Shown here in pieces: positions 30,638 through 62,435 of a stretch of DNA of 64,000 nucleotides; position 1 is the stretch's first letter, and each line of letters begins with the position of its first letter. This DNA is from Elusimicrobiota bacterium (lineage in GTDB: Bacteria; Elusimicrobiota; Elusimicrobia; F11). The notes beneath the pieces are model-generated. The model worked only from the letters and a program-made list of their open reading frames with translations. It searched no databases and had not been told where the DNA came from. The translations under genes and the position numbers were made by a program. The stretch spans positions 1 through 64,000 of the forward strand of contig JAJVIP010000003.1 in assembly GCA_022072025.1 (NCBI GenBank). Direction: 5' to 3'.

Positions 30638-30769
30638 GCCACTCTAGTACTTCGATTACCTTGTCTAGAGTATAGTTTTGAATTTCATCAGCCCGAGATC
30701 TCCCAACGGGATTTTTCATTTTTAAAATGGTTTCTTTTATCTCTTCAATTTTTAACATATAAATAGGGG

Positions 30770-31060: not shown

Positions 31061-31066
31061 TAGTTG

Positions 31067-31936: not shown

Positions 31937-32641
31937 TTATCCCTCCTCCTTTATAAGATGTTGTTCTATATACTGTGGAGCTTGATTAAATCTTGGGATA
32001 TGGAGATCAATCTCCCAGTTGTTATAGAATTCGCTCCTTACTACACAAGATCCCCGCTTTAAGTGATCCTCTACATCATTCCAGTTCAGATTTTTGGCGT
32101 GGATTAAATCATGAAGCTTCTGCGAATCTTGTCCAAGAAGATCTTTATGAGAGTATAGACTTTGAGCGAGCATTTGAAGAGAATTTCTTTCTGCGTCCTG
32201 TTGCCTCCATAGGAAGTAGTTGTTAACCTCGTCTTCTGGCAACACAAATACTCTCGCATCAAAAATAGCCTCTCTCCCCATAAATACCGTAAGGGCAGCT
32301 GAAGCATAACCAGCTGAAACAGATACTATCTTTTGGATCTCGTTTCCAAACCACGGCTGACTATCAAACTTTTTATAGTTGTGGAGTAGGAGAGAAATCT
32401 CATCGCTTTGAATGTAGGCGAGTTCAACTCCTTGGAGTTTTTCACAGAGCCTCCTTGCCACTTCTTGCATGTGGGTGGTAAAGCCTAAATCATATGGCTT
32501 CTGAGCCTTATTAAGTAGGGTATGAAAAGCTTTGCCGTCTAAGCGGATAATTACTGGTAGTCGCAGGGGAAGTCTCGTCAGAAAGGGCGATTCATAATTT
32601 TCTTTCATGCGGTTGCCAAGGGATTTCATTTTCTTACGCAC
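31937..32641 (-). CDS. Thg1-like protein (tRNA-His guanylyltransferase family, 3'-5' polymerase)
   Basis: VIIRLDGKAFHTLLNKAQKPYD...MQEVA...ELAYIQSDEISLLL matches the Thg1 active-site region (RxDGxxFH, SDEIS). Confidence 0.75.
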   Translation of the reverse strand: MRKKMKSLGNRMKENYESPFLTRLPLRLPVIIRLDGKAFHTLLNKAQKPYDLGFTTHMQEVARRLCEKLQGVELAYIQSDEISLLLHNYKKFDSQPWFGNEIQKIVSVSAGYASAALTVFMGREAIFDARVFVLPEDEVNNYFLWRQQDAERNSLQMLAQSLYSHKDLLGQDSQKLHDLIHAKNLNWNDVEDHLKRGSCVVRSEFYNNWEIDLHIPRFNQAPQYIEQHLIKEEG

Positions 32642-32691
32642 TCCAAATTTTTTAAATCTATCTTGTATTATACCATATACCCACTAGATAG

Positions 32692-33093
32692 TCAAGGCTT
32701 TAGACTCGAACCACGGGGAGTAATTTTGATCTCTTTATACGGCATGATATCTCCTAAAGTTCTGCTCTGTTTTTTGCCAAATCTCCCCTCTAGGGCGTAA
32801 CAGGCGAGGATTTCTAGAGCATGATGAGTAGAACAACAAACACAAGAATCCTTACATAGGTGTCCTACAGCTCCACCCCCAGGTGGTAACTTGGTCAACT
32901 CTACCTCACTTTTTGGTTGAAGATATACCTTCCCAGCATCCCAATCAAACCCAATATAAACATCTTTAATCTCTGTCCATTTTGTCCCCGTTACTGGGTT
33001 ATGACTCCCCCCAGAAAATCCAGACAGACTTAAACAAACCTCATCCTCTGGGTTGGCATGAGATAGTTTAGCGATTAAACTCTTAACCTTCAT
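32692..33093 (-). CDS. hypothetical Cys-rich protein
   Basis: 133 aa. Confidence 0.3.
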   Translation of the reverse strand: MKVKSLIAKLSHANPEDEVCLSLSGFSGGSHNPVTGTKWTEIKDVYIGFDWDAGKVYLQPKSEVELTKLPPGGGAVGHLCKDSCVCCSTHHALEILACYALEGRFGKKQSRTLGDIMPYKEIKITPRGSSLKP

Positions 33094-33240
33094 CTTCTTC
33101 CTTTTCTATTTCTTCTTCAAAACTGATTACTACCTCTGGACGGAATAAACTACAGCGGATTACTATCTCGTCTATTGTTTCGTACTCCCCAATGAGAGTA
33201 ACCATTCCATCCCCCCGCTGATCTGTGGCATACATTTTGA

Positions 33241-33828
33241 TCATTTTTCTCCTGGAGCATATCCCAAATTAACTTCGGGATGAACCTTTAATGATTGTCC
33301 CACCCATAGAGAGCTCAAAAGCTTAATAAGTTGGTCCCTAGTGGCTTCGTCTTTTTTAATATAACAAACTGTCATGTGTGGCATATATCCAGAGAAGGTA
33401 TCGATGTGTGGGAGGAACTGGAGGCGAGAATGTCCCTCGAGCAATTTCTCGTCTACCTCAATGTGAGCCACAATACAATAGTAGGGTTCATCCTCATAGG
33501 GCGACTCAAAAAACCCAATGTCCTGAATTTTAACTTCGTCAATACTCCAATCCTTTAACACGGCATGAACCTGGTCGGCCCAAGTATGGGCATTTTCCAT
33601 AAGACCGTAAAGGAGAGTAACATGGGCATTCTTTCCTGCTACCCAACCCTTAATCCATTTGCGATCCTCATTTTGGGCGTAGTACAACATCTCTCCATCG
33701 CCCATCCCGTCTATACTCAACATAGAATCTAGTGGTTCTAGATCTAACATTACACATCCTAATCGATCAACATTTACATTTAAATCTTTATATATACCTT
33801 CGAACATGTGAGAGTTAAGTTGTGGCAT
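33241..33828 (-). CDS. 2H-phosphoesterase superfamily protein (LigT/ThpR-like 2',3'-cyclic phosphodiesterase)
   Basis: Two HxTx motifs, NAHVTLLYG and MPHMTVCYI, about 85 residues apart. This is the defining signature of the 2H fold. Confidence 0.55.
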   Translation of the reverse strand: MPQLNSHMFEGIYKDLNVNVDRLGCVMLDLEPLDSMLSIDGMGDGEMLYYAQNEDRKWIKGWVAGKNAHVTLLYGLMENAHTWADQVHAVLKDWSIDEVKIQDIGFFESPYEDEPYYCIVAHIEVDEKLLEGHSRLQFLPHIDTFSGYMPHMTVCYIKKDEATRDQLIKLLSSLWVGQSLKVHPEVNLGYAPGEK

Positions 33829-34146
33829 CTTTATCCTTTTGTTGAGCTAAGTATAGTTTCATGTGTTTGTGACACAACTGCTTATTATACGCCTTGCGTG
33901 GGCGAGCCTTAGCCCTACAATGACACTTCTCACAATGATGACCACTAAGTTTCATTATCTACCTCCCCACAAAAGCTCCCACCATTCTACTAGCGGCGAT
34001 TTTTTATCTACTTCTTTTACCAACCTTTCAATCGCTACTCTAACCATATCTTTGTCCCACTTACCACCAACTTTGGTTTGTATTATATAGCCATTCTTTG
34101 TGTTCTCTTTGGTGAGGGTGATACTTGCTTTCATGTAGAGATCTCC

Positions 34147-34872
34147 TTAAAAGAGGCGAACATGGTCTTTGCGAGCTTTGAAGTTGATTATCTCTTCTAG
34201 CTGGCGAAGGTAGTCAGATTTAGTGTTCATTCTGACCAGTTGTCTACCATGTACTGCCAATTTGTGTTTGAGGTTGGCAAAAGAGACGGCTCCAGATTCT
34301 TTAAGCTGGATAACAGCAGTAATGAATGATCTGTTCCTTCTTACCACCGCATCAGCAAACTCTGAAAATGCGTCTACCCATTGCATAACCCCATCAGCAT
34401 ATTCGGCGTATTTAATTTTGAACTTACCGCTTTTAATATAATCTTTGTTGCTAGTTCCCCCGACATTAGCGGTTGGTCCAAACATCATTAGACTTCCAGC
34501 TAGTCCATAGGAAATCCCCCACTTCTTTTTAAATTCTTGGAGCTCTATATAGTTTTTGTTACCCAGTTCAATATAACTATTAACAAAATCATCATAAGAC
34601 CACGACTTGGCGGATGTGTTTAGCTTTTGGACAATATCTAGGTTTCCATCGGTTACAACATAAGAAACTGGGACACCAAGCTGTTTGGCGGCCTCTAGGC
34701 GGTGTTGTCCATCAATAACTAATCCATTTTGGTTAACAATAATAGGATTAGATTCTAAGAGATTATTTTTGGCAATGCTTTGAACTAACGATTTAACATG
34801 GTTGGGTTGAAGATCGCGGTTGCCCCGCATGTGAGTGAACTGATCATATTTGGTAGTGCTTTTAATATTCAT
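34147..34872 (-). CDS. ParB-like nuclease domain protein
   Basis: IIVNQNGLVIDGQHRLEAAKQLGVPV is a ParB/Sulfiredoxin-type N-terminal domain. Confidence 0.55.
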   Translation of the reverse strand: MNIKSTTKYDQFTHMRGNRDLQPNHVKSLVQSIAKNNLLESNPIIVNQNGLVIDGQHRLEAAKQLGVPVSYVVTDGNLDIVQKLNTSAKSWSYDDFVNSYIELGNKNYIELQEFKKKWGISYGLAGSLMMFGPTANVGGTSNKDYIKSGKFKIKYAEYADGVMQWVDAFSEFADAVVRRNRSFITAVIQLKESGAVSFANLKHKLAVHGRQLVRMNTKSDYLRQLEEIINFKARKDHVRLF

Positions 34873-34904
34873 ATCTATCCTTTATATTATATAACAATTA
34901 ACAT

Positions 34905-34933
34905 ATTATATCATACTATTATGGTAATGTCAA
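34905..34933 (-). promoter_or_regulatory. sigma70 promoter TTGACA-17-TATAAT (minus strand)
   Basis: Plus-strand tgtcaa 34928-34933 and attata 34905-34910. Confidence 0.55.
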
Positions 34934-35794
34934 CTAGAAATCACCGTAGTCAACTTGTAGACAAGTTAGCCCCAGCGATCTCCACATATCAACCACCTGT
35001 TGGCGATCATCTAAAACAAATAGGACATTATATTTTCCCTTAATCTCAGCGTCATAAATTTCTTTTTTAATAATATTGTCGGTGCGATGATCCCCAGTTT
35101 TTCTCATAAAGAGGGAGATACGATCATCTAAAACAGAATGTTTGGCTAACCAGCGAACTGTTGGTTCACGATCTTTATCCTCTCTTCCAGAAAGATAGAT
35201 CGGGCGGACCCATTGTTTAGCATAATATGTTTTGAGAATATTTATTATTGGTTCGTTTGGCAAATCGTTCTCGCAAGTGGATGCGTCATAAGGATCACGA
35301 CCATTCCCTAGTGCGATGGTCCCATCTAGGTCACAAATGATAACTGTCGCCAGAGCAGGATCGAATGTGGGGCGTTCTACGGCTCTAAATTCTAGTTGAC
35401 GAGCCATCCTTCGGATCACCTTACTACCGACTGAATTTGGGCGGAGCAGATCCCTCTCTATACATGTTTCAACGGGGACATTGGTAAAGTCTTGAGTTTC
35501 AACCTCAGCATTATATTTGGCGGCAATTCTCCACATAGTATTTTTATGTTTACTATGTAGATTTGTATCATCCACAATTATGTCATGACCGCCCTTTAGA
35601 GATTCTTCTACAATAAAATCACGAACTTTCAAAACAAATTCTTCCCGCCCCTTTGAATGTACACCGACATGAAGCATGTCCCGCAAACTATCTTTATTAA
35701 CTCTAACTGTGTTGGGGTTTTGGGTTTGGTACTCTCTCGCCCAAGTTGTTTTACCAGAACCTGGAAGTCCTTTTGTCAATATAATCTTATTCAT
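34934..35794 (-). CDS. pnkp: polynucleotide 5'-kinase / 3'-phosphatase (T4 Pnkp-like)
   Basis: N-terminal P-loop kinase (GLPGSGKTT) and C-terminal HAD phosphatase (ICDLDGTIA, DxDGT motif I). Same domain order as T4 Pnkp. Confidence 0.8.
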   Translation of the reverse strand: MNKIILTKGLPGSGKTTWAREYQTQNPNTVRVNKDSLRDMLHVGVHSKGREEFVLKVRDFIVEESLKGGHDIIVDDTNLHSKHKNTMWRIAAKYNAEVETQDFTNVPVETCIERDLLRPNSVGSKVIRRMARQLEFRAVERPTFDPALATVIICDLDGTIALGNGRDPYDASTCENDLPNEPIINILKTYYAKQWVRPIYLSGREDKDREPTVRWLAKHSVLDDRISLFMRKTGDHRTDNIIKKEIYDAEIKGKYNVLFVLDDRQQVVDMWRSLGLTCLQVDYGDF

Positions 35795-35826
35795 AATAAG
35801 TATTATATACTATGAATAGGATTTTG

Positions 35827-36189
35827 TCAATACTTAACCTCTTCTATCTTTCCACAATACTGACACATTTTCTTAGTTGCTTTTTTGGTTATAGTCTCTG
35901 GATTTGTATTTTGATTTGGTCCACCCCCGCCAGCATTGGGATAATACCCACCCCCACTTCCCCCCGCTACCGTGCCAGTATAGGAATACCCCCCTGGGGT
36001 ATATCTAGTCTCTGTCCACTCCACAATTAACCACAAATGACCACCATCTTTCCCCACAATCTTATTCATGGCATCTCTGGCGGGATCGTCACATCGCAAA
36101 TTATTATTAGTCATGTTCAGGATTTTGTTTCTCCCAGTAGGCTTTAATCCTTTCGGGTAGATTATACTCCCAATGGATATGATCGCCAA
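35827..36189 (-). CDS. hypothetical Gly-rich protein
   Basis: 120 aa. May be partly spurious; overlaps the next ORF. Confidence 0.2.
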   Translation of the reverse strand: MAIISIGSIIYPKGLKPTGRNKILNMTNNNLRCDDPARDAMNKIVGKDGGHLWLIVEWTETRYTPGGYSYTGTVAGGSGGGYYPNAGGGGPNQNTNPETITKKATKKMCQYCGKIEEVKY

Positions 36190-36676: not shown

Positions 36677-37747
36677 TCATGCTACCGCCTCAGATTGTTG
36701 TTTAAATGGTCGCTCTGCCACGGGGCGAAGCTTCTTCCATATCATATGTGCATAGGGACGCTTATCAAGCATAGAGAATAAGATTGGGGCATACTCTCCA
36801 TCTTTCATAAACTCCATAGCTAGTGTCTTGCGATCTTTCACTCCACTACCAGTAGTGGTTATAAAAAGTGTTTTAGCTATTTGATCAATGGTATTATATT
36901 GGAGAATAAGGTTGTCGGCCGTATCTTTTACCCAGTGGTAAAACTCTTCTGGGACTCTTTCCATCAACTCTCCGAGGTCTTGCCCGTTACGAAGGAGATC
37001 CCAAATAGTCTTTTTATTCACCCCAGTTAATAGTCTGTGTAGGCGTACATATTCGTCAAACTTAAACTTAGTCCTCATCCCCGATTGGAAGCGGATAACA
37101 AACCCTTCACTGTCATTTTTTTGGATTGCCTTAATCTTTTCTAGATCATTTAACCCATCATATCTGCGTACTATTTTCATTTTCCCCGAAAACGCCATCT
37201 GTAGTGTCTCATATGGTACTTCTACACCATCCCTAGTGTTAAAGGCTGTGAGAAGATATAGATCTCTATCTAATCCATAATTAACTACAATCCTATTTTC
37301 TGGATAGATAATTTCGAACAAGTATGTGTATTCTGGGTTAAATTCTACTTGAGAATATTTTTCCTGAAGCATTTTATTCGCCTCAATAGCTTGGTCACTC
37401 TCAAAAGATCCCCGCGTGGCGATAAAGGGTTTCCCCCCAACAAAGTACATAATCCCAAGCGATCCATCCATCTTCTCAAATACTTCGAATGGCTCTGTAA
37501 GTGGTAATTTGGGTAAACCGTTATTTTCTTGATGTTCAGATAAGTTCCAGAACTTCTGGAATGGCCTGGCAACAACCTGGTTGGAAGCGTCCATAATAAG
37601 ACCCCGACAGGTAATTGTCTCGGGAGTCCAAACTTTATCAAATTGAGCTTTTTGGGAATAGTTATAAATCCACAATTCTTCGGTGGGGTGTTTTGTTTTA
37701 TCTATATACTTCTGGTCTATCAACTCTTGTAGTCGAGCGAGATCCAT
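36677..37747 (-). CDS. ATP-dependent RNA ligase (Rnl1/RnlA-like)
   Basis: Motif I EKMDGSLG (KxDG), motif IV EGFVIR, motif V KFKFDEY. 356 aa. Confidence 0.6.
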   Translation of the reverse strand: MDLARLQELIDQKYIDKTKHPTEELWIYNYSQKAQFDKVWTPETITCRGLIMDASNQVVARPFQKFWNLSEHQENNGLPKLPLTEPFEVFEKMDGSLGIMYFVGGKPFIATRGSFESDQAIEANKMLQEKYSQVEFNPEYTYLFEIIYPENRIVVNYGLDRDLYLLTAFNTRDGVEVPYETLQMAFSGKMKIVRRYDGLNDLEKIKAIQKNDSEGFVIRFQSGMRTKFKFDEYVRLHRLLTGVNKKTIWDLLRNGQDLGELMERVPEEFYHWVKDTADNLILQYNTIDQIAKTLFITTTGSGVKDRKTLAMEFMKDGEYAPILFSMLDKRPYAHMIWKKLRPVAERPFKQQSEAVA

Positions 37748-39473: not shown

Positions 39474-39794
39474 TTAACTATTAGCTATTTCCAATAGCAC
39501 ATCGGCGTGACACGGCTTGTCTAGGGGACACCAACAGGCCAGGTTGAATCCCCTTAAATCTCTTTTCGCCGCCTGAGAGCGGGTACATGATGTGTCATAT
39601 GCTTGGTCGTGTACTCCTGACATAAGCCATTCTTTATATTTAGCTATCGCCCCTCCCCTACCCAAAACCATAATTCCATTAATTCTATCTCCTTCTTTAT
39701 ATGGGTTTCCCCAGAAGGTTGGTCTTCCTACATAAATTGTATTTGGTGGCATTTTCCACCCCTTAGTGCGTTTACGCTGTACTCGAATCGGCAT
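39474..39794 (-). CDS. DUF4326-like protein
   Basis: YVGRPTFWGNPY...KYKEWL...LRGFNLACWCPLDKPCHADVLLE matches the DUF4326 pattern (GNPf...CwC...CHadvL). Confidence 0.4.
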   Translation of the reverse strand: MPIRVQRKRTKGWKMPPNTIYVGRPTFWGNPYKEGDRINGIMVLGRGGAIAKYKEWLMSGVHDQAYDTSCTRSQAAKRDLRGFNLACWCPLDKPCHADVLLEIANS

Positions 39795-40578
39795 GGATCA
39801 TCTCCATAACTTCATATAATAATTTATTTATTTTAATTCGATTATTTGTATCTGGGATTGTAGAAATTTGATACTCATATTCAAATTTTTGGAAGAGTTG
39901 TTCGGCGAGAGCTTTAACCTGATCTAAACTATATTCTCCGAGCTTAATATCTATTAATTCTTGTCTATCTTCAGTCCGATACACAATCGGAGCACCATCT
40001 CGGAGAAATTCTATCCCCATTTTGAGTAGTCTAACAAGATGGGAAGCATTTTTACTATCATATCCGATTAGATCTACCATTTTTTTTCTCTTTTCGCCCA
40101 TATATCCCCGATATGGGTTAGATTCATTCATTCTTTTGAGCTGAGCCCTAGCATATCCCCCAAAACAGTTGTAAACTAGGTTTTTAGAAACAAAAAGGTG
40201 GCGGTTATCAATCACATACTGCCAAACGGGGGAGATATTAATATAATCCTCTTTCCGCATATAAAGTGTATTGATTACATTGGGGTTCATCCCGCTCAAA
40301 AGCACAAACATTTTGTGGAGCTCATATCCCACCTCATCAATCGCATCTTGTTTAACTTCGTATGTTTCTTTGGCATGGGCATACCCCTCTAGGGTATAGT
40401 AATATTGTTTGGGATAAGCGAATACGGAAATGGTGTCTATGTCATCTGTCCCCCATTTTTCCTCTGGTGGAACATATAAGTTGTGAGCGTGAGATCCCCG
40501 ATATGCAAGCATAAGGGGTATTTTCTCAAACATTTTATTATAAATGCTTTCTGGTTTGCCCAATCTTTCCCTGACCAT
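39772..40578 (-). CDS. Pol-beta superfamily nucleotidyltransferase
   Basis: YRGSHAHNLYVPPEEKWGTDDIDTISV fits the hG[GS]x(9-13)Dh[DE]h signature. 268 aa. Confidence 0.4.
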   Translation of the reverse strand: MVRERLGKPESIYNKMFEKIPLMLAYRGSHAHNLYVPPEEKWGTDDIDTISVFAYPKQYYYTLEGYAHAKETYEVKQDAIDEVGYELHKMFVLLSGMNPNVINTLYMRKEDYINISPVWQYVIDNRHLFVSKNLVYNCFGGYARAQLKRMNESNPYRGYMGEKRKKMVDLIGYDSKNASHLVRLLKMGIEFLRDGAPIVYRTEDRQELIDIKLGEYSLDQVKALAEQLFQKFEYEYQISTIPDTNNRIKINKLLYEVMEMIHADSSTA

Positions 40579-52838: not shown

Positions 52839-52909
52839 GGCCAGCTAGTTCAGTGGTAGAACATCGGTGTTACATACCGACTATGAGGGTTCGATTCCTT
52901 CGCAGGCCA
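52839..52909 (+). tRNA. tRNA-Val (anticodon UAC)
   Basis: Manual cloverleaf: acceptor GGCCAGC/GCAGGCC (one A-A mismatch), D-arm GUUC-AGUGGUA-GAAC, anticodon stem UCGGU/ACCGA with loop GUUACAU, T-arm GAGGG-UUCGAUU-CCUUC. Confidence 0.55.
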
Positions 52910-53335
52910 CATCGGATACTTAGGAGAGGGTCTTACTGGCCGTAAGCACTTAACCTCTAAGTTGATTAAGCTAACCCGCGTGGAGGCGGTCCATCCCAAC
53001 TGTTTGGACGCTCCCTTGCTAGACTAGGAAGCATGAGCGGTGGAAGGTGTTAAGACCGAAATTGCTAATCAGCTACCTTCGCCTGAGTATCGGATCGCTT
53101 TAGGTCGGGGGGAAACTAGACTGAGTTTTCTCGAGTCTGATATAGCCCCCCGCCCATTTTTCCGAGCTCAGTGGGTGAAAGACACTCGTATGCTAGAGGG
53201 CTATGGAATGTAAGTGGGAATCCAGAAGAGTCCCCTTTTCCTGAAGTGTGGTGCTGGCCGTCGCCTTCCGAGCTAACACCCTTGCTCCTATGAGGAACGC
53301 AGGGTAATGGTAAGTTCTCTAGCACACCCGCACTA
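52910..53335 (+). other. 426-nt noncoding, highly structured spacer inside the tRNA array (unknown RNA element)
   Basis: No credible ORF. Hairpins CCGC-GUGGAG-GCGG and GUCCA...UGGAC. A long composite hairpin GGUCGGGGGG-AAACU-[AGACUGAG-UUUU-CUCGAGUCU]-GAUAUAG-CCCCCCGCC sits near 53115-53170. Confidence 0.3.
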
Positions 53336-53414
53336 GGCGATATGGTGAAATGGTAGACACGCCTGCCTTAAGAGCAGGTCCGCAAGGGTAAAGGTCCGAG
53401 TCCTTTTATCGCCA
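53336..53414 (+). tRNA. tRNA-Leu (anticodon UAA), type II
   Basis: Acceptor GGCGAUA/UAUCGCC, anticodon stem CCUGC/GCAGG with loop CUUAAGA, long variable arm, T-arm AAAGG-UCCGAGU-CCUUU, discriminator A. Confidence 0.65.
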
Positions 53415-53418
53415 CCTC

Positions 53419-53492
53419 GGGCGACTACCCCAATTGGTAGAGGGAACGGTTTTAGAAACCGTGTAGTCAGAGTTCGAATCTCTGGTTGCCCA
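53419..53492 (+). tRNA. tRNA with anticodon UAG (Leu by code) but short class-I variable arm
   Basis: Acceptor GGGCGAC/GUUGCCC (G5-U68 wobble), anticodon stem ACGGU/ACCGU with loop UUUAGAA, 5-nt variable loop, T-arm CAGAG-UUCGAAU-CUCUG. Confidence 0.5.
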
Positions 53493-53497
53493 CATTT

Positions 53498-53568
53498 AGA
53501 TCTCTAGCTCAATGGTAGAGCTGTCGGCTTATACCCGACTGACAGAGGTTCGATTCCTTTGAGATCTA
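53498..53568 (+). tRNA. tRNA-Ile (anticodon UAU), A1-U72
   Basis: Acceptor AGAUCUC/GAGAUCU, D-arm GCUC-AAUGGUA-GAGC, anticodon stem GUCGG/CCGAC with loop CUUAUAC, T-arm AGAGG-UUCGAUU-CCUUU. Confidence 0.55.
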
Positions 53569-53572
53569 CAGA

Positions 53573-53644
53573 GTTCCTATAGTTCAATGGATAGAATAAT
53601 TCCCTTCTAAGGAATAGATTCGGGTTCAAGTCCTGGTGGGAACA
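53573..53644 (+). tRNA. tRNA-Arg (anticodon UCU)
   Basis: Acceptor GUUCCUA/UGGGAAC, anticodon stem AUUCC/GGAAU with loop CUUCUAA, T-loop UUCAAGU. Confidence 0.55.
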
Positions 53645-53680
53645 CTTGTTTCAGTAAAGCAAGTATGTCATAATATATTT

Positions 53681-54091
53681 ATGACAAATTCAAATGAATA
53701 TATGAGGGGATATCTTAAAAAGAGATATCATTCTCGCCGAGAAGGGGCTGTCAAACTTCTGGGGGGATGTTGTTCAAAATGTGGATCTCTAAAAAAATTA
53801 GAACTTGATCATAAAGACTATACAAAAAAATCTTTTGATATTTCTAAGTTGTGGAATATATCTTATATAAAATATAATGAGGAAATAAAAAAATGTCAAT
53901 TATTATGTAAATCTTGTCATATTAAAAAAACAAGAGAAGATTTAGGACAAGAAAACGCAAGAGAAACCCATGGAACCTTATCCGCATGGAGATATTGTAA
54001 GTGTCAATTGTGCCGAGAGGCATTTAATAAATATATGAGAGAATATAAAAGCAGGGTTCATAGCAAAGTGGCTACTGCACTCGCCTCTTAA
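53681..54091 (+). CDS. HNH endonuclease inserted in the tRNA array
   Basis: ELDHKDYTKKSFDISKLWN...LLCKSCHIKKT HNH core with CCSKCG zinc knuckle. Very AT-rich. The track ORF 53636..54091 overlaps the upstream tRNA-Arg and the downstream tRNA-Lys by about 38 nt. Confidence 0.65.
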   Translation: MTNSNEYMRGYLKKRYHSRREGAVKLLGGCCSKCGSLKKLELDHKDYTKKSFDISKLWNISYIKYNEEIKKCQLLCKSCHIKKTREDLGQENARETHGTLSAWRYCKCQLCREAFNKYMREYKSRVHSKVATALAS

Positions 54092-54126
54092 GCGAGATAT
54101 CGACAGTTCGATTCTGTCTGAGCCCA
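54054..54126 (+). tRNA. tRNA-Lys (anticodon CUU)
   Basis: Acceptor GGGUUCA/UGAGCCC (U4-G69 wobble), anticodon stem CUCGC/GCGAG with loop CUCUUAA, T-arm GACAG-UUCGAUU-CUGUC. Confidence 0.55.
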
Positions 54127-54130
54127 CATT

Positions 54131-54207
54131 GGGGTTGTAGCATAGTGGCCTATTGCATCCGCCCTTTAAGCGGAACATCGGTGGTCCGAATCCACCCAGC
54201 CCCACCA
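54131..54207 (+). tRNA. tRNA-Lys-like (anticodon UUU) with C at position 33, CCA encoded
   Basis: Acceptor GGGGUUG/CAGCCCC, anticodon stem UCCGC/GCGGA with loop CCUUUAA (C33 is unusual), T-arm GGUGG-UCCGAAU-CCACC, 3' ACCA encoded. Confidence 0.45.
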
Positions 54208-54209
54208 AT

Positions 54210-54281
54210 GGCCCTGTCGTCTATCGGCTAGGACACCAGGTTTTCATCCTGGTAAGTAGGGTTCAATTCCCTACAGGGTCA
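54210..54281 (+). tRNA. tRNA-Glu (anticodon UUC)
   Basis: Acceptor GGCCCUG/CAGGGUC, D-arm GUCU-AUCGGCUA-GGAC, anticodon stem CCAGG/CCUGG with loop UUUUCAU, T-arm UAGGG-UUCAAUU-CCCUA. Confidence 0.6.
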
Positions 54282-54287
54282 CAAGTT

Positions 54288-54361
54288 CATCCGTTGGCCA
54301 AGCAGTAAGGCGACTGTTTGCAGAACAGTTATCACAGGTGCAAATCCTGTACGGATGTCCA
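54288..54361 (+). tRNA. tRNA-Cys (anticodon GCA), CCA encoded
   Basis: Acceptor CAUCCGU/ACGGAUG, anticodon stem ACUGU/ACAGU with loop UUGCAGA, T-arm ACAGG-UGCAAAU-CCUGU, 3' UCCA. Confidence 0.5.
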
Positions 54362-54368
54362 ATAAATT

Positions 54369-54440
54369 GGTAGAGCCGTCGCGAAGTCGAGACGCCTGTT
54401 TGAAGCACAGGAGAAGTGGGAGCATTACCTACCTCTACCA
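54369..54440 (+). tRNA. degenerate tRNA-like gene (anticodon GAA, Phe) lacking canonical D-loop GG and T-loop TPsiC
   Basis: Acceptor GGUAGAG/CUCUACC perfect, anticodon stem CCUGU/ACAGG with loop UUGAAGC, but D-arm GUC-GCGAAGUCGA-GAC and T-arm GUGGG-AGCAUUA-CCUAC are non-canonical. Confidence 0.35.
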
Positions 54441-54441
54441 C

Positions 54442-54512
54442 TGTGCCTTAGTTCAACGGTAGAATACTGCTCTGATAAAGCGGGGACATAAGTTCAACTC
54501 TTTTAGGCACAA
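54442..54512 (+). tRNA. tRNA-Ile (anticodon GAU), U1-A72
   Basis: Acceptor UGUGCCU/AGGCACA, D-arm GUUC-AACGGUA-GAAU, anticodon stem CUGCU/AGCGG with loop CUGAUAA, T-loop UUCAACU. Confidence 0.5.
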
Positions 54513-54562
54513 CTCATTTCAGAAAAGACAGAAAAAGTGCCTTTAAGTGAAATGAGAATCGT

Positions 54563-54638
54563 GGTGGTATTGATGTAGCGGTAGTCATACTTGGCTGTGA
54601 ACCAAGAAGAGACAGTTCAACTCTGTCATACCACCCCA
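54563..54638 (+). tRNA. tRNA-His (anticodon GUG) with genomically encoded G-1 opposite C73 and encoded CCA
   Basis: G-1 at 54563, acceptor GUGGUAU/AUACCAC, anticodon stem CUUGG/CCAAG with loop CUGUGAA, T-arm GACAG-UUCAACU-CUGUC, 3' C-CCA. Confidence 0.65.
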
Positions 54639-54669
54639 TAGTATGCTAGAATTGGGAAAAAGGAGGAAT

Positions 54670-55098
54670 ATGATTGTATACACGGGCGGGACTTTTGACT
54701 TGTTTCATTGGGGACATATTAATTTTCTTAAAGAGTGTAGAAAATTGGCGGGACCCGAAGGAAAAGTATGGGTAGCTCTCAACACAGATGAGTTTGTTCT
54801 TAGGTATAAACAACAGAAAACTGTGTTTACTTTGGTTGAGCGGAAATTAATGCTTGAAGCGAGTGGTTTGGTGGATAAAGTAATCACCAATATCGGGGAC
54901 GAAGATTCTAAACCAGCCATCGAACATGTTCGTCCAAATATTGTCGCAATTTCCTCTGATTGGGCACGCCGAGACTACTATGGACAAATGAGGTTTACTC
55001 AAGACTGGCTAGATGAGCGGGGTATAATTCTTGCCTACATCCCCCACACTAAGGGAATCTCCTCAACAGAGATCAGATATAGGCTAAAGGCGGTGTAG
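54670..55098 (+). CDS. cytidylyltransferase-family nucleotidyltransferase (TagD-like, HxGH motif)
   Basis: GGTFDLFHWGHINFLKECRKL...ALNTDEFV...ISSDWARRDYYGQ...YIPHTKGISSTEIRYRL parallels glycerol-3-phosphate cytidylyltransferase TagD. SD AAAGGAGG before the ATG at 54670 (track start is 54643). Confidence 0.65.
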   Translation: MIVYTGGTFDLFHWGHINFLKECRKLAGPEGKVWVALNTDEFVLRYKQQKTVFTLVERKLMLEASGLVDKVITNIGDEDSKPAIEHVRPNIVAISSDWARRDYYGQMRFTQDWLDERGIILAYIPHTKGISSTEIRYRLKAV

Positions 55099-55159
55099 TG
55101 TAGTGGTAGCACAATGGGTTCTCAGCCCATTATCTGGAGTTCGAATCTCCACGCCGTCA
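55089..55159 (+). tRNA. tRNA-Glu (anticodon CUC)
   Basis: Acceptor GGCGGUG/CGCCGUC (two G-U wobbles), D-arm GUGU-AGUGGUA-GCAC, anticodon stem AUGGG/CCCAU with loop UUCUCAG, T-arm UGGAG-UUCGAAU-CUCCA. Confidence 0.6.
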
Positions 55160-55216
55160 CAGTTGATTTTTTAGTCAAAATATGCTAAAATAATACGCCA
55201 TAGGGGAGATTTATAT

Positions 55217-57732: not shown

Positions 57733-59055
57733 TTGAGTGGGAGAGAGATCATGAGTCAGATTAAATATATAGATTTGTTTGCAGGAGTGGGGGGATTCCA
57801 CTATGGAATTGACAAAGCCTTTTATGATAAACAGGCCGAGAGGTTATTATCGTGGGAACCCAACGATGGACTACTCCCCGACACTCAGCAAGAACAGTTG
57901 GCAACAAAACCACTTTGTGTGTATTCCAGCGAGTGGGATAAATATGCAAATTCAGTCTACAGGAGGCACTATGGAGAATGTGACATCAGAGATATTAGAA
58001 AAGTCGAGCCAGAAGAAATCCCAGATTTTGACTTACTCTGCGGGGGATTTCCTTGCCAAAGTTTCAGCGTTGCTGGAAAGCGGGGAGGATTTGAAGATAC
58101 CCGAGGTACTATGTTTTTTGAAATCGCACGGATTGTCAAACAAAAACAACCACGCCTACTTCTCCTCGAAAATGTCAAAGGCCTACTCAATCACGACCAA
58201 GGAAGAACTTTCGGAGTTATCCTCTCCACGCTGGATGAGCTTGGGTATGATGTGCAATGGCAAGTGCTTAACAGTAAGAACTTCGGAGTTCCCCAAAACA
58301 GAGAGCGAGTGTTCATTATCGGACATCTTAGAGGAACACCCAGACCAGAAGTATTTCCTCTCACCAGCTTTAACCCAAAGGCTCTTGAGTACGCTGGGGG
58401 AATCCTCAGTGAAAAAGCCAAGCTCTGGCTAGATAACGGTAAAACTTTCTCTCGTAATTTTCCTCAAGGATCTCGCGTCTATAAAGACAGCGGGGTTTCT
58501 TCTACGCTTGCGAGCCAAGCGGGGGGATTAGGTGCCAAAACTGGGCTTTATATGGTGGACGATCCGTCTAGGAAAGATGGGGTAGAAGATAAAAATCTTA
58601 GCCCTACCCTTCGTAGTGAGTCTCATGGAAATCTACCATCGGTTGTGATCCCCGTATTAACTCCAGATCGTGTTACTAAGCGACAAAATGGTAGAAGATT
58701 TAAGGAGAACGGGGAACCAAGTTTCACCCTAACGGGACAAGATAGGCATGGAATCCTCGTTAATATGGGAGAATTAAAAATAAAAGATCAAGCAAACACC
58801 CTTGATGGGAATTATCACAAGGGGTTAGACAACCATGGTCAGAGAACTGGAGTTTTTGATGGGCTTACTATCCGCAAACTTACCCCAGTAGAATGTGAAC
58901 GACTTCAGGGTTTCCCCGATGGCTGGACTGCCCTCGGCCATGGGGATACCCCAATGTCGGACTCTCAAAGATATAAAATGATGGGTAATGCCGTCACCAC
59001 CAATGTGGTTACTGAGATTGCGAAGAAACTACTATGGACACCAAATCAGCTCTAA
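57733..59055 (+). CDS. dcm: DNA (cytosine-5)-methyltransferase
   Basis: Motif I IDLFAGVGGFHYG, motif IV GGFPCQSFSVAGKRGG, motif VI LLENVKGL, motif X QRYKMMGNAVTTNV. Confidence 0.9.
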   Translation: MSGREIMSQIKYIDLFAGVGGFHYGIDKAFYDKQAERLLSWEPNDGLLPDTQQEQLATKPLCVYSSEWDKYANSVYRRHYGECDIRDIRKVEPEEIPDFDLLCGGFPCQSFSVAGKRGGFEDTRGTMFFEIARIVKQKQPRLLLLENVKGLLNHDQGRTFGVILSTLDELGYDVQWQVLNSKNFGVPQNRERVFIIGHLRGTPRPEVFPLTSFNPKALEYAGGILSEKAKLWLDNGKTFSRNFPQGSRVYKDSGVSSTLASQAGGLGAKTGLYMVDDPSRKDGVEDKNLSPTLRSESHGNLPSVVIPVLTPDRVTKRQNGRRFKENGEPSFTLTGQDRHGILVNMGELKIKDQANTLDGNYHKGLDNHGQRTGVFDGLTIRKLTPVECERLQGFPDGWTALGHGDTPMSDSQRYKMMGNAVTTNVVTEIAKKLLWTPNQL

Positions 59056-60297: not shown

Positions 60298-60304
60298 GGG
60301 TTTG

Positions 60305-60385
60305 CGGAGGGTATAGGAGTTGAACCTATTACGCCTTTCGGCGACGGGTTAGCGACCCGTTGTATTACCGTCCTACCCACCCTCC
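60305..60385 (-). tRNA. tRNA-Ser (anticodon GCU), type II, C33
   Basis: Acceptor GGAGGGU/ACCCUCC, anticodon stem ACGGG/CCCGU with loop UCGCUAA, long variable stem CGCC-GAAA-GGCG, T-loop UUCAACU. Confidence 0.55.
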
Positions 60386-60389
60386 AGAG

Positions 60390-60471
60390 CGGAAGGGACA
60401 GGATTCGAACCTGCACGCCCTTTCAGGCAGTTGTTTTCAAGACAACCGAGCTACCACTGCTCAACCCTTCC
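60390..60471 (-). tRNA. tRNA-Ser (anticodon UGA), type II
   Basis: Acceptor GGAAGGG/CCCUUCC, D-arm GAGC-AGUGGUA-GCUC, anticodon stem GUUGU/ACAAC with loop CUUGAAA, long variable arm, T-loop UUCGAAU. Confidence 0.6.
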
Positions 60472-60475
60472 AATG

Positions 60476-60559
60476 TGGCCACTGTAGGAATCGAACCCAC
60501 CTAGTCCGAGGGACAAGTGCTTTACAGGCACCCTGGAACACCAGTTCCTTATAATGGCC
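60476..60559 (-). tRNA. tRNA-Tyr (anticodon GUA), type II
   Basis: Acceptor GGCCAUU/AGUGGCC, anticodon stem GGUGC/GCACU with loop CUGUAAA, long variable arm GUCC-CUC-GGAC, T-arm GUGGG-UUCGAUU-CCUAC. Confidence 0.5.
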
Positions 60560-60563
60560 AATG

Positions 60564-60634
60564 TTTCGGGAGAAGGGTTCGAACCTCCGTTAGCTGGGTC
60601 AAAGCCAGCTGTCCTACCACTAGACGATCCCGAA
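60564..60634 (-). tRNA. tRNA-Gln (anticodon UUG), U1-A72
   Basis: Acceptor UUCGGGA/UCCCGAA, D-arm GUCU-AGUGGUA-GGAC, anticodon stem GCUGG/CCAGC with loop CUUUGAC, T-arm GGAGG-UUCGAAC-CCUUC. Confidence 0.55.
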
Positions 60635-60639
60635 TCGTG

Positions 60640-60711
60640 TGCCCCCAGAAAGAATCGAACTTTCATTATCTGTTTCGTAGACAGACATCCTATCCGTTAA
60701 ATGACAGGGGC
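60640..60711 (-). tRNA. tRNA-Arg (anticodon ACG)
   Basis: Acceptor GCCCCUG/UGGGGGC, anticodon stem UCUGU/ACAGA with loop CUACGAA, T-arm GAAAG-UUCGAUU-CUUUC. Confidence 0.55.
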
Positions 60712-60716
60712 TTGTG

Positions 60717-60788
60717 TTGCGAGAGATGGGTACGATCCACCATCTCAACTTTCAGAGAGTTGTGTCCTACCTGTTAGACGATCTCGCA
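60717..60788 (-). tRNA. tRNA-Gln (anticodon CUG), U1-A72, slightly degenerate T-loop
   Basis: Acceptor UGCGAGA/UCUCGCA perfect, D-arm GUCU-AACAGGUA-GGAC, anticodon stem CAACU/AGUUG with loop CUCUGAA, T-arm GGUGG-AUCGUAC-CCAUC. Paralog of the UUG tRNA-Gln. Confidence 0.5.
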
Positions 60789-60793
60789 TTGTG

Positions 60794-60867
60794 CTCTAGG
60801 AGAGGGACTCGAACCCCCGACCCCTCGATTAACAGTCGAGTGCTACCACCAGCTGAGCTACCCTAGA
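60794..60867 (-). tRNA. tRNA-Asn (anticodon GUU), U1-A72
   Basis: Acceptor UCUAGGG/UCCUAGA, anticodon stem CUCGA/UCGAG with loop CUGUUAA, T-arm GGGGG-UUCGAGU-CCCUC. Confidence 0.5.
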
Positions 60868-60872
60868 TTGGG

Positions 60873-60946
60873 CGGGATTGAGCAGATTCGAACTGCCGAT
60901 TTCTCGCGTGACAGGCGAGTGGAATGAGCCACTATCCTACAATCCC
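60873..60946 (-). tRNA. tRNA-Asp (anticodon GUC)
   Basis: Acceptor GGGAUUG/CAAUCCC, anticodon stem CUCGC/GCGAG with loop CUGUCAC, T-arm GGCAG-UUCGAAU-CUGCU. Confidence 0.55.
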
Positions 60947-61332
60947 ATTTTATAAATACGATTAGATGTTCTTATGGCATGACAGTTAGAACAAACCAAA
61001 TCACATTTTTTTATTTCACTTTTAATCTTTTCTATACTCGCAGATTTTTGGACCAGGGCGGAGATAGAATGGTAGATGTCCTTTTTAGGTATTCTGTGAT
61101 CAAATTCCATACAGCATGACGGGAAAATACCACCACAATCAAGACAAGGTTTCCCCAGTTTATACTCTTCAATAAATTTAATATTTCTTGCCACATATGA
61201 AGGTCTGTGTGATTTTCTATTGGCACGATATTTTTCTTTGTTGTTTTGATAATGTTTTTGTTGATAAGCTTTTTGCTTAAGTTTGTCTTTGTATCCCATA
61301 GACACATTATATGTTAAAGTTCTATTCTCCAC
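60937..61332 (-). CDS. HNH endonuclease
   Basis: CLDCGG...CCMEFDHRIPKKD...LVCSNCHAIRT HNH/zinc motif. Its 3' end overlaps the tRNA-Asp 5' end by 10 nt. Confidence 0.7.
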   Translation of the reverse strand: MENRTLTYNVSMGYKDKLKQKAYQQKHYQNNKEKYRANRKSHRPSYVARNIKFIEEYKLGKPCLDCGGIFPSCCMEFDHRIPKKDIYHSISALVQKSASIEKIKSEIKKCDLVCSNCHAIRTSNRIYKMGL

Positions 61333-61352
61333 AATAGAGAATCGTACTTATG

Positions 61353-61424
61353 TTGCGGAGAACAGAGTCGAACTGTTTCCCCCTGCTTATGAGACAGGTG
61401 TGCGAGCCGTCACACTCCCCCGCA
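61353..61424 (-). tRNA. tRNA-Met (anticodon CAU; elongator or lysidine-Ile type), U1-A72
   Basis: Acceptor UGCGGGG/CUCCGCA, D-arm GUGU-GACGGCUC-GCAC, anticodon stem CCUGU/GCAGG with loop CUCAUAA, T-arm AACAG-UUCGACU-CUGUU. No initiator features. Confidence 0.55.
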
Positions 61425-62048: not shown

Positions 62049-62433
62049 TCGGGGGCGACTTGCTTTGACAGGTTTCTCTCAGAATAATCTGCATGTCGGC
62101 TTTGACCAAGAGCCGTTAAACAGGGTTAAAAAACAAATGCTAAATTTTTGAAGCATATAGCAAATAAAGTTACCGCTATCCTTGACGGGATATGGGACGC
62201 TTTATCTGTTCCTTCAGTTACAGCTTTCGCTTAACTGACGGCGTTCGACATGAACTTGCTTGTGGGAAAGTGTCGGGCGAGAATACACACAAGATCAGCT
62301 TTTGATTGAGCATAATATCAATCACAACCACAGGCGTAGTGGTTAAAACGCTGGCGTCCTCAACGGATGAAAAACATGTAGACGGTTATTTTGTGAAGGT
62401 CTGGACGGGATGTCACTCATCCCCGCCTCCACC
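62049..62433 (+). ncRNA. ssrA: tmRNA (SsrA), one-piece, about 385 nt
   Basis: 5' GGGGGCGACUUGCUUUGACAGG... resembles E. coli GGGGCUGAUUCUGGAUUCGACGGG. 3' end GGAC-GGGAU-GUCACUC-AUCCC-CGCCUCC-A-CC forms a T-arm plus acceptor that pairs with the 5' GGGGGCG, including the G3-U70 Ala identity pair. Internal CUGCAUGUCGG is like the E. coli pseudoknot-1 GGUGCAUGCCGAGG. Candidate tag ORF GCA AAU AAA ... GCU UUC GCU UAA (ANKVTAILDGIWDALSVPSVTAFA) at about 62160-62234. Confidence 0.65.
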
Positions 62434-62435
62434 CC

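What the first reader, a model, noticed from the sequence alone, without database searches (positions are those of the whole stretch)
54563..54638. tRNA-His with genomically encoded G-1 co-resident with a Thg1-like enzyme
The tRNA-His(GUG) gene carries an encoded G-1 opposite discriminator C73 plus an encoded CCA, which is the bacterial mode. In that mode Thg1 is not needed for G-1 addition, so the Thg1-like protein (31937..32641) more likely acts as a 5'-end repair 3'-5' polymerase on damaged tRNAs than as a His-specific G-1 adder.
Basis: partly seen in the sequence, partly recalled or inferred. Interest (0 to 1): 0.6.

Follow-up and report, generated by a model that had tools for sequence, protein, structure and literature searches.

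The report
Phage Thg1-like tRNA repair enzyme
A large uncultured phage carries an ordinary bacterial-type histidine tRNA gene and, 22 kb away inside a cluster of RNA-repair genes, a Thg1-like reverse (3'-5') polymerase that most likely rebuilds damaged tRNA 5' ends; this matches what is already proposed for such enzymes.

Summary
tRNA-His(GUG) has G-1 at 54563, a 7-bp stem G1-C72 (54564-54634), C73 at 54635 and an encoded CCA at 54636-54638. ARAGORN and Rfam both confirm the gene.

The ORF at 31937-32641(-) is a Thg1-like protein (TLP). Its likely start is the ATG at 32629, giving 230 aa. It scores Pfam Thg1 E=8e-24 and PHROG 4717 E=7.5e-77. Its best solved relative is the Bacillus thuringiensis TLP (BtTLP), the characterised tRNA 5'-end repair enzyme (E=1e-54). 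All three catalytic carboxylates and the TLP-type methionine are conserved.

- The TLP sits in a same-strand cluster with a 2H phosphoesterase, T4-type Pnkp, an Rnl1-like ligase and RlaP.
- It has its own near-consensus sigma-70 promoter.
- A complete TLP-bearing Staphylococcus phage has no tRNA genes, so the TLP does not depend on a phage tRNA-His.

The reasoning is already published for bacterial TLPs (Rao et al. 2011) and suggested for phages (Anantharaman 2010; Iyer 2021). At least 591 IMG/VR contigs and 162 GenBank phage records encode homologues. This is a new member of a known kind. Activity and substrate remain untested, and restoring G-1 opposite C73 is not excluded.

The parts
54563..54638 (+). 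tRNA-His(GUG) gene. G-1 is 54563, positions 1-72 are 54564-54634, the anticodon is 54597-54599, discriminator C73 is 54635, and the encoded CCA is 54636-54638.
   Evidence: ARAGORN; Rfam RF00005 at 55 bits, 54564-54635; acceptor-stem pairing computed; sequence read.
31937..32629 (-). Thg1-like protein (TLP), 230 aa from the ATG at 32629. The maximal ORF from a GTG at 32641 gives 234 aa. Catalytic D31, D76, E77; NTP-site R29, E13, R126; TLP-type M153.
   Evidence: Pfam Thg1 E=8.1e-24; PHROG 4717 E=7.5e-77; PDB 4KGK BtTLP E=1.2e-54; invariant columns in alignment A1; BtTLP residue roles from PMC3701042; start codon and SD; 100% identical 230-aa database protein P0001.
32667..32695 (-). Near-consensus sigma-70-type promoter (TTGACT-17 nt-TATAAT, with TG before the -10) in the 50-nt gap just upstream of the TLP gene.
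   Evidence: It is one of 17 matches (at most 1 mismatch) to TTGACA-N17-TATAAT in the window, against 0.84 expected from shuffles.
33241..33828 (-). 2H-superfamily (LigT-like) cyclic phosphodiesterase with both H-x-T motifs (HVT at residue 69, HMT at residue 151).
   Evidence: Pfam 2_5_RNA_ligase2 E=1e-7, above its cut-off; PHROG 755; motifs.
34934..35794 (-). T4-type polynucleotide 5'-kinase/3'-phosphatase (Pnkp). P-loop GLPGSGKT and phosphatase motif DLDGT. A perfect TTGACA-17-TATAAT promoter lies at 35802-35830(-).
   Evidence: Pfam HAD_PNKP E=8e-48 and AAA_33; PHROG 505 E=1.5e-89; motifs; promoter.
36677..37747 (-). T4 Rnl1-like ATP-dependent RNA ligase with motif I KMDG at residue 92.
   Evidence: Pfam RNA_lig_T4_1 E=4e-20; PHROG 562 E=6e-75; NCBIfam TIGR02308 E=7e-27, below its cut-off; motif.
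39772..40578 (-). RlaP, the RNA-ligase-associated Pol-beta-fold nucleotidyltransferase.
   Evidence: Pfam PF10127 RlaP E=1.4e-11, 45.1 bits against a cut-off of 23. Its predicted role is taken from PMC7824862.
25374..26414 (-). Second RNA ligase, of the DraRnl (DRB0094) type, with an N-terminal OB fold.
   Evidence: NCBIfam TIGR02306 at 188 bits against a cut-off of 151; Pfam PHA02142 OB and RNA_ligase; PHROG 968 E=1e-79.
52839..55160 (+). tRNA array 1, 12 genes: Val, Leu x2, Ile x2, Arg, Lys x2, Glu x2, Cys, His. tRNA-His is the eleventh.
   Evidence: ARAGORN; Rfam.
60305..61424 (-). tRNA array 2, 9 genes: Ser x2, Tyr, Gln x2, Arg, Asn, Asp, Met.
   Evidence: ARAGORN; Rfam; Ser-GCU re-registered to 60305-60385.

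Best explanation
The window is part of a large uncultured tailed-phage genome. It was binned in a MAG labelled Elusimicrobia.

tRNA-His. The gene is a canonical bacterial-type gene. G-1 is transcribed and pairs with C73. It is presumably kept because host RNase P cuts one position upstream on such 8-bp stems; this step is inferred from established bacterial tRNA-His biology. The CCA is encoded too. This tRNA therefore needs no Thg1.

TLP. The enzyme is a bacterial-type 3'-5' template-dependent RNA polymerase. It most likely works as BtTLP does:
1. It activates a 5'-monophosphate tRNA end with ATP or GTP.
2. It adds the NTP that pairs with the 3' strand of the acceptor stem.
3. It repeats this until the stem is complete again.

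Likely pathway (inferred). The neighbouring T4-type Pnkp can supply the 5'-phosphate from 5'-OH ends. The 2H phosphoesterase and the Pnkp phosphatase domain can heal 3' ends. The two RNA ligases and RlaP can deal with internal breaks. The genes have individual consensus host-type promoters, which suggests early expression. Together they would keep the host and phage tRNA pool usable during infection, for example against host nucleases.

What is shown: gene identities, intact catalytic motifs, gene arrangement, and the tRNA-His anatomy. What is inferred: enzymatic activity, the substrates, the timing of expression, and the counter-defence purpose.
For: tRNA-His anatomy.

TLP identity and its closeness to the biochemically characterised repair enzyme BtTLP. 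The BtTLP residues D30, D75, E76, R28, E12, R131 and M158 are all conserved. BtTLP's kinetic preference for 5'-truncated tRNAs of any identity comes from PMC3061083.

Repair-gene cluster on the same strand within 9 kb, with intact motifs.

Promoters: 17 near-consensus sites against 0.84 expected. One sits directly upstream of the TLP and one upstream of Pnkp.

The same linkage occurs elsewhere:
- 18 of 80 IMG/VR TLP loci have a Pnkp, Rnl1 or RlaP homologue within 10 kb, by tblastn alone.
- In Mycobacterium phage Pound the TLP is three genes from a polynucleotide kinase.
- Thg1-PNK-ligase neighbourhoods are reported in PMC2904730.
- A phage role in 5' restoration is proposed in PMC7824862.

The TLP is independent of a phage tRNA-His: the complete genome of Staphylococcus phage PMBT8 has a TLP and no tRNA genes.

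No 5'-editing is required: all 21 tRNAs are paired at 1:72 to 3:70.
Against: - No activity, substrate or expression data exist for this protein or for any phage TLP. None was found in the held literature.
- The physiological source of 5'-truncated tRNAs is unknown even for BtTLP. I found no described defence nuclease that removes tRNA 5' nucleotides.
- The repair-gene linkage is not universal. The three closest homologue contexts examined (about 55% identity, L001-L006) show no Pnkp or ligase within 10 kb, and 62 of 80 IMG/VR loci show none by tblastn. No background rate was measured.
- BtTLP also adds G-1 opposite C73, so a tRNA-His role is not excluded.
Confidence: 0.6

Rival explanations
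1. G-1 maintenance. The TLP mainly restores G-1 on tRNA-His, phage or host, when RNase P miscleaves at +1 or the extra nucleotide is trimmed. It would use C73 as the template. It would then be His-directed in practice, even though G-1 is encoded.
For: C73 is the correct template, and BtTLP does add G-1 opposite C73. Rao et al. explicitly keep this possibility open. Three of the four tRNA-His genes found within 10 kb of TLP genes in IMG/VR loci are G-1:C73. Some TLP-bearing phages carry non-canonical tRNA-His genes, for which a TLP might matter: Fusobacterium phage FNU3 has G-1 opposite A73, and L051 has U-1 and U73.
Against: BtTLP prefers N+1 repair over -1 addition by 5-160 fold and acts on non-His tRNAs. 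The TLP is 22 kb from tRNA-His and lies among general RNA-repair genes. Phage PMBT8 has a TLP and no tRNA genes. Phages of Caulobacter, Brevundimonas and rhizobia also carry TLPs; from my own knowledge, not tested here, the tRNA-His of those hosts is reported to lack G-1.
Confidence: 0.2
2. Non-tRNA substrate. The TLP acts on other structured RNAs whose 5' end is paired with a 3' strand. Candidates are the phage tmRNA, the Y-RNA-like RNA, or broken RNAs awaiting ligation. Alternatively it supplies 5'-adenylylated ends to the ligation pathway.
For: The window also encodes a tmRNA with a tRNA-like acceptor stem, a Ro60/TROVE protein with an adjacent YrlA-like match, and two RNA ligases. Anantharaman et al. 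raised a ligation-type role through 5'-App intermediates.
Against: All characterised TLP activities are on tRNA or tRNA-like acceptor stems. Nothing here links the TLP specifically to tmRNA or Y RNA, both of which lie more than 12 kb away.
Confidence: 0.1
3. 5'-editing. As in amoebozoan mitochondria, some phage tRNAs would be encoded with mismatched 5' nucleotides that are excised and re-synthesised by the TLP.
For: ARAGORN's version of tRNA-Ser(GCU) showed a U3-U70 mismatch and an odd anticodon position.
Against: With the Rfam boundaries (60305-60385) the Ser-GCU acceptor stem GGAGGGT/ACCCTCC is perfectly paired, so the mismatch was a registration artefact. All 21 tRNAs are paired at positions 1-3. 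The only remaining mismatch is A5-A68 in tRNA-Val, which is outside the positions known to be edited.
Confidence: 0.03

Closest known systems
Bacillus thuringiensis Thg1-like protein (BtTLP; PDB 4KGK/4KGM), a tRNA 5'-end repair 3'-5' polymerase
   Same: The match covers the full length (query 5-230 against 1-238 of 245) at E=1.2e-54, with about half of the aligned residues identical. The catalytic carboxylates, the NTP-site arginines and glutamate, and the TLP-specific Met158 equivalent are conserved. The genomic situation is also the same: G-1 of tRNA-His is encoded, so the enzyme is not needed for tRNA-His maturation.
   Different: This one is encoded by a phage rather than a bacterium. It is embedded in a Pnkp / ligase / 2H / RlaP cluster and has its own consensus promoter. 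It is untested biochemically.
Phage-encoded 'tRNA-His guanylyltransferase' genes (PHROG 4717), for example in Bacillus phages Bcp1, Bc431v3 and BM15, Pseudomonas phage 201phi2-1, and jumbo phages
   Same: It belongs to the same family (PHROG E=7.5e-77). 162 GenBank phage records have a homologue and at least 591 IMG/VR contigs do. The literature already interprets these genes as RNA repair or 5' restoration.
   Different: The best phage match is only 44-48% identical. The window has no megablast match to any deposited phage. The linkage to a full repair cluster is tighter here than in most of the loci examined.
Eukaryotic Thg1 (yeast, human, Candida), the tRNA-His G-1 adding enzyme
   Same: It shares the same fold family and the three catalytic carboxylates.
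   Different: Similarity is much weaker (E=2e-8 to 3e-11). The window protein has ERNSLQM where Candida Thg1 has HINNLYN. The phage tRNA-His has C73 and an encoded G-1 rather than A73 with no encoded G-1.
Phage T4 tRNA repair pathway (Pnkp plus Rnl1, countering the PrrC anticodon nuclease)
   Same: A T4-type Pnkp and an Rnl1-like ligase with intact motifs lie 2-5 kb from the TLP on the same strand.
   Different: T4 has no TLP, as far as I know. Here the pathway is extended with a TLP, RlaP, a 2H phosphoesterase and a second, DraRnl-type ligase.

Membership tests
Thg1/TLP superfamily (Pfam PF04446) | A Thg1 catalytic-domain match above Pfam's gathering score | tested here: met
   84.5 bits against a cut-off of 29.2, covering profile positions 3-130 of 130. 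The C-terminal Thg1C domain is only sub-threshold (18.6 against 26.3).
Thg1/TLP superfamily (Pfam PF04446) | Three conserved carboxylates (hTHG1 D29/D76/E77, equal to BtTLP D30/D75/E76) | tested here: met
   D31 in RLDG, and D76 and E77 in SDE. All three are invariant in 27 aligned homologues. Residue roles are from PMC3701042.
Bacterial/archaeal TLP (5'-end repair type, BtTLP-like) | Closer to characterised TLPs than to eukaryotic Thg1 | tested here: met
   BtTLP scores E=1.2e-54. MaTLP scores 1.1e-11, Candida Thg1 3e-11 and human THG1 2e-8.
Bacterial/archaeal TLP (5'-end repair type, BtTLP-like) | TLP-type residue (Met) at the BtTLP M158 position, where eukaryotic Thg1 has Asn | tested here: met
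   The window has WRQQDAERNSLQM, aligned to BtTLP WRQQDASKNSISM. The Met is at least 90% conserved in alignment A1.
Bacterial/archaeal TLP (5'-end repair type, BtTLP-like) | Watson-Crick templated 3'-5' addition, with a preference for 5'-truncated tRNAs | not testable with these tools
   This needs enzyme assays. It is known only for BtTLP and MaTLP.
Eukaryotic-type Thg1 (dedicated G-1 adding enzyme) | The HINNLYN-type motif with its activation-step Asn, and a cognate tRNA-His with A73 and no encoded G-1 | tested here: not met
   The motif region reads ERNSLQM. The tRNA-His has an encoded G-1 and C73.
Bacterial-type tRNA-His | GUG anticodon, encoded G-1, discriminator C73, and a potential 8-bp acceptor stem | tested here: met
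Bacterial-type tRNA-His | RNase P cleavage between -2 and -1, so that G-1 is retained | not testable with these tools
   Inferred from established bacterial tRNA-His processing. It needs an RNase P assay or 5'-end mapping.
T4-type RNA end-healing and sealing module (Pnkp plus Rnl1) | Pnkp with a kinase P-loop and a DxDGT phosphatase motif, and a ligase with the KxDG adenylylation motif | tested here: met
   GLPGSGKT and DLDGT in Pnkp, and KMDG in the ligase.
Known anti-phage defence systems (PADLOC-DB 2.0) | A match of the TLP or its cluster neighbours to any defence-system model | tested here: not met
   There are no hits for the TLP, 2H, ParB-like, Pnkp, Rnl1 or RlaP proteins.

The most novel reading that the evidence does not exclude
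The TLP and the adjacent T4-type Pnkp would form a dedicated tRNA 5'-end healing and fill-in branch of a multi-branch phage RNA-repair island, expressed early from host-type promoters. Its purpose would be to reverse an as yet undescribed host attack that trims nucleotides from tRNA 5' acceptor ends. That would give the first physiological substrate and purpose for any bacterial-type TLP.
Probability: 0.3. Interest if true: 0.55.

Novelty: new member of a known kind. Interest (0 to 1): 0.27.

Why it matters
Little changes if the reading is correct. It adds one more divergent, uncultured phage to a widespread set of phages with Thg1-like genes, and the argument 'G-1 is encoded, so the TLP is a repair enzyme' has been in print since 2011.

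The useful part is practical. The physiological substrates of bacterial-type TLPs are still unknown. This phage presents a TLP in an unusually explicit setting, with the following in one 64-kb stretch:
- Pnkp, a 2H phosphoesterase, two RNA ligases and RlaP
- a Ro protein with a Y-RNA-like match
- a tmRNA and 21 tRNAs

That makes it, or a cultured analogue such as the Bacillus or Mycobacterium phages with TLP-PNK linkage, a reasonable system for asking which tRNA 5' ends get damaged during infection.

Tried and rejected
- Exact-sequence look-ups of the window TLP and of its identical 230-aa database entry P0001 found no contig on record. The source context could not be retrieved. Only the label 'MAG: Elusimicrobia bacterium', with a 103,985-bp contig, is known.
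- Megablast of window 1-25000 against 50,697 phage records found nothing. Blastn of 30000-36000 found only short patches in TLP and Pnkp genes.
- The 5'-editing idea was dropped. The apparent U3-U70 mismatch in tRNA-Ser(GCU) came from ARAGORN's registration and disappears with the Rfam boundaries.
- tRNA-Asp looked like a second 8-bp-stem tRNA with C73 and CCA in ARAGORN's drawing. The Rfam boundaries give a standard G1-C72 stem with G73 followed by CCCA, so I did not treat it as His-like.
- NCBIfam has no model that matches the TLP, and PADLOC has no match to the cluster.
- Literature searches for experimental work on phage TLPs found only comparative-genomics mentions. One search was rejected for syntax. 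Burroughs and Aravind 2016 is not in the held library.
- The contexts of the three closest long-contig homologues showed no repair genes nearby. This limits how general the linkage is.
- I did not run structure prediction. A crystal structure about half identical to the query already covers the question.

Full report
**1. The observation**

ARAGORN finds 21 tRNA genes in the window, in two arrays (52839-55160 on +, 60304-61424 on -). One is tRNA-His(gtg) at 54564..54638. The Rfam tRNA model independently places positions 1-73 of the same gene at 54564..54635 (55 bits).

Read from the sequence and ARAGORN's drawing:
- 5'-GTGGTAT (54564-54570) pairs perfectly with ATACCAC (54628-54634).
- The discriminator is C (54635) and CCA follows (54636-54638).
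- The base before position 1 is G (54563).

No other tRNA in the window has a G(-1):C73 pair. An encoded CCA is the exception here. Only Lys-UUU, Cys and His have a clean one. ARAGORN's 'CCA' for tRNA-Asp becomes G73 followed by CCCA under the Rfam boundaries.

**2. The Thg1-like ORF**

The ORF at 31937..32641(-) exists.
- It matches Pfam Thg1 at 84.5 bits against a cut-off of 29.2.
- It matches PHROG 4717, 'tRNA-His guanylyltransferase', at E=7.5e-77.
- Against all PDB chains the best hit by far is the Bacillus thuringiensis Thg1-like protein, 4KGK (E=1.2e-54, nearly full length). The Methanosarcina TLP and the eukaryotic Thg1 enzymes follow at E=1e-11 to 2e-8.

The BtTLP structure paper names D30, D75 and E76 as the conserved carboxylates. 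It describes R28, E12 and R131 at the nucleotidyl-transfer site, and M158 where eukaryotic Thg1 has Asn (PMC3701042). All have counterparts here: D31, D76, E77, R29, E13, R126 and M153 in 230-aa numbering. All are invariant or nearly so in an alignment with 26 metagenomic homologues.

The likely start is the ATG at 32629, not the GTG at 32641. A GGAG lies 11 nt upstream of the ATG and overlaps the GTG. A 230-aa database protein is 100% identical, and homologues begin at that point.

**3. Surroundings**

The TLP is not near tRNA-His. It is 22 kb away on the other strand. It lies in a run of minus-strand genes that form an RNA-repair cluster:

| Gene | Coordinates (-) | Evidence |
|---|---|---|
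| 2H phosphoesterase, both HxT motifs | 33241-33828 | |
| T4-type Pnkp, motifs GLPGSGKT and DLDGT | 34934-35794 | |
| Rnl1-like RNA ligase, motif KMDG | 36677-37747 | |
| RlaP nucleotidyltransferase | 39772-40578 | |

Further along the same strand are a DraRnl-type RNA ligase that passes NCBIfam's cut-off (25374-26414), a SpoU-family RNA methylase (29214-29666) and a Ro60/TROVE protein (17899-19323).

The window holds 17 matches (at most 1 mismatch) to TTGACA-N17-TATAAT, against 0.84 expected from shuffles. One lies in the 50-nt gap before the TLP (32667-32695) and a perfect one lies before Pnkp (35802-35830). These genes therefore look individually driven by host-type promoters. That they are expressed early is my inference.

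Phage identity rests on a weak tape-measure match (E=4e-6), a minor tail protein match, an ERF recombinase and an amidase. The only database label is a MAG binned as Elusimicrobia.

**4. Related sequences**

TLP genes are common in phages.
- tblastn finds 162 GenBank phage records with a homologue. All are below 60% identity, from hosts including Bacillus, Prevotella (Lak phages), Caulobacter, Mycobacterium, Vibrio and Aeromonas.
- At least 591 IMG/VR contigs have one.
- In the 80 best IMG/VR loci (10 kb either side), 18 carry a homologue of the window's Pnkp, Rnl1 or RlaP, by tblastn at 1e-5.
- In Mycobacterium phage Pound the TLP is three genes from a polynucleotide kinase.

The linkage is not universal. 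The three closest long-contig homologues show no repair genes nearby, and I have no measured background rate.

Four of the fetched loci have a tRNA-His near the TLP. Three are G-1:C73 and one has U-1 and U73. Of the two complete genomes I scanned whole, Staphylococcus phage PMBT8 has a TLP and no tRNA at all. Fusobacterium phage FNU3 has a tRNA-His with G-1 but A73. So the TLP is not tied to a phage tRNA-His of any one kind.

**5. Mechanism**

The best-supported reading is that the TLP works like BtTLP. It activates a tRNA 5'-monophosphate with ATP or GTP. It then adds nucleotides in the 3'-5' direction, templated by the 3' strand of the acceptor stem, until the stem is restored. For BtTLP this reaction is 5-160 fold more efficient than -1 addition, is not biased to G, and works on non-His tRNAs (PMC3061083).

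Pnkp next door can make the required 5'-phosphate. This association was already noted for bacterial Thg1 homologues (PMC2904730).

Gene identity, motifs and arrangement are shown. Activity, substrates and the counter-defence purpose are inferred.

Rivals:
- G-1 maintenance on tRNA-His. This is the same chemistry opposite C73 and was explicitly left open by Rao et al..
- Action on other acceptor-like RNAs, such as the phage tmRNA.
- 5'-editing. I reject this because all 21 tRNAs are paired at positions 1-3 once tRNA-Ser(GCU) is put in the Rfam register.

**6. Comparison with what is known, and verdict**

Phage Thg1 genes have been discussed as possible RNA-repair or counter-defence enzymes since 2010 and again for jumbo phages in 2021. 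I found no experimental study of a phage TLP in the held literature.

The protein meets every sequence-level criterion for a bacterial-type TLP and fails those for a eukaryotic-type Thg1. The tRNA-His meets the criteria for the bacterial type. Nothing in the cluster matches a known defence system.

The finding is real and correctly interpreted, but it is a new member of a known kind. Its modest interest lies in the unusually complete RNA-maintenance repertoire around it, which could make a related cultured phage a good system for finding the still unknown natural substrates of TLPs.

Noticed in passing
window 62051-62434 (+): A full-length tmRNA match (Rfam RF00023, 74.6 bits against a gathering score of 47, E=8e-28) that ARAGORN missed in both tRNA/tmRNA runs. 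The ends form a tRNA-Ala-like acceptor stem (GGGGGCG / CGCCTCC) with G3-U70 and discriminator A, followed by CC. This is a phage-encoded tmRNA next to the tRNA arrays. The tag peptide was not determined.
   Followed up: partly
window 17899-19323 (-) and 19610-19741 (-): A Ro60/TROVE plus vWA protein (Pfam TROVE E=1e-19). Directly upstream on the same strand is a sub-threshold but full-length YrlA (Y-RNA-like) match: 32.3 bits against a gathering score of 69, E=2e-4 in a 3.1-kb search. A perfect TTGACA-17-TATAAT promoter lies at 19826-19854 (-). This is probably a phage Ro/Y-RNA pair. A GroEL homologue follows at 20137-21732 (-).
   Followed up: partly
window, 17 sites, for example 19826, 23117, 30609, 34905, 35802, 41324, 44174, 46562, 47797 (-) and 57219, 62643 (+): There are 17 matches (11 of them perfect) to TTGACA-N17-TATAAT, against 0.84 expected from shuffles. 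Most are on the minus strand between 19.8 and 50.3 kb and several lie in intergenic gaps. This looks like a set of consensus host-type promoters marking the early region of the phage.
   Followed up: partly
window 60304-60385 (-), tRNA-Ser(GCU): ARAGORN (60304-60381, anticodon at position 29, U3-U70 mismatch, tiny D arm) and Rfam (60305-60385) disagree on the 5' end by 4 nt. The Rfam register gives a perfect GGAGGGT/ACCCTCC acceptor stem, so the ARAGORN model is mis-registered.
   Followed up: yes
window 60869-60947 (-), tRNA-Asp(GUC): ARAGORN draws an 8-bp acceptor stem (U-G at the top) with discriminator C and CCA. Rfam places G1 at 60946 and G73 at 60873, which leaves CCCA downstream. The 3' tail is therefore not a clean CCA. 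Whether the extra U/G pair has any meaning is unknown.
   Followed up: partly
window 60475-60559 (-), tRNA-Tyr(GUA): ARAGORN calls this tRNA, but it is the only one of the 21 that is not listed by Rfam at the gathering threshold.
   Followed up: no
window 54643-55098 (+): A cytidylyltransferase-like gene (Pfam CTP_transf_like E=2e-18; weak similarity to glycerol-3-phosphate cytidylyltransferase and RfaE domain II) sits inside tRNA array 1, between tRNA-His and tRNA-Glu(CUC). Its function is unclear.
   Followed up: no
window 26680-29114 (-): An SPFH/Band-7 (prohibitin-like), TPM-phosphatase and LemA trio lies between the DraRnl-type ligase and the SpoU methylase. Fusobacterium phage FNU3 also has a 'prohibitin' three genes from its TLP (L090 4941-5750).
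   Followed up: no
L089 38495-38568 (-) (Fusobacterium phage vB_FnuS_FNU3, OQ808965.1): The tRNA-His(GUG) of this TLP-encoding phage has an encoded G-1 but discriminator A73 (plus CCA), so G-1 is unpaired as in eukaryotes. In such phages the TLP might matter for tRNA-His.
   Followed up: no
L051 13713-13786 (+) (IMG/VR UViG_3300022660_000321): The tRNA-His(GUG) call next to a TLP gene has U at -1, U73, CCA, and two U-U mismatches in the acceptor stem. It has no encoded G-1. The sister locus L047 has tRNA-Glu(UUC) in the corresponding slot.
   Followed up: no
window 57733-59055 (+) and 34147-34872 (-): A C5 cytosine DNA methyltransferase (Pfam E=3e-83), and a ParB-like protein (PHROG 12305 E=2e-29, no Pfam hit) that lies between Pnkp and the 2H phosphoesterase behind its own perfect consensus promoter. 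The role of the ParB-like protein in the cluster is unknown.
   Followed up: no
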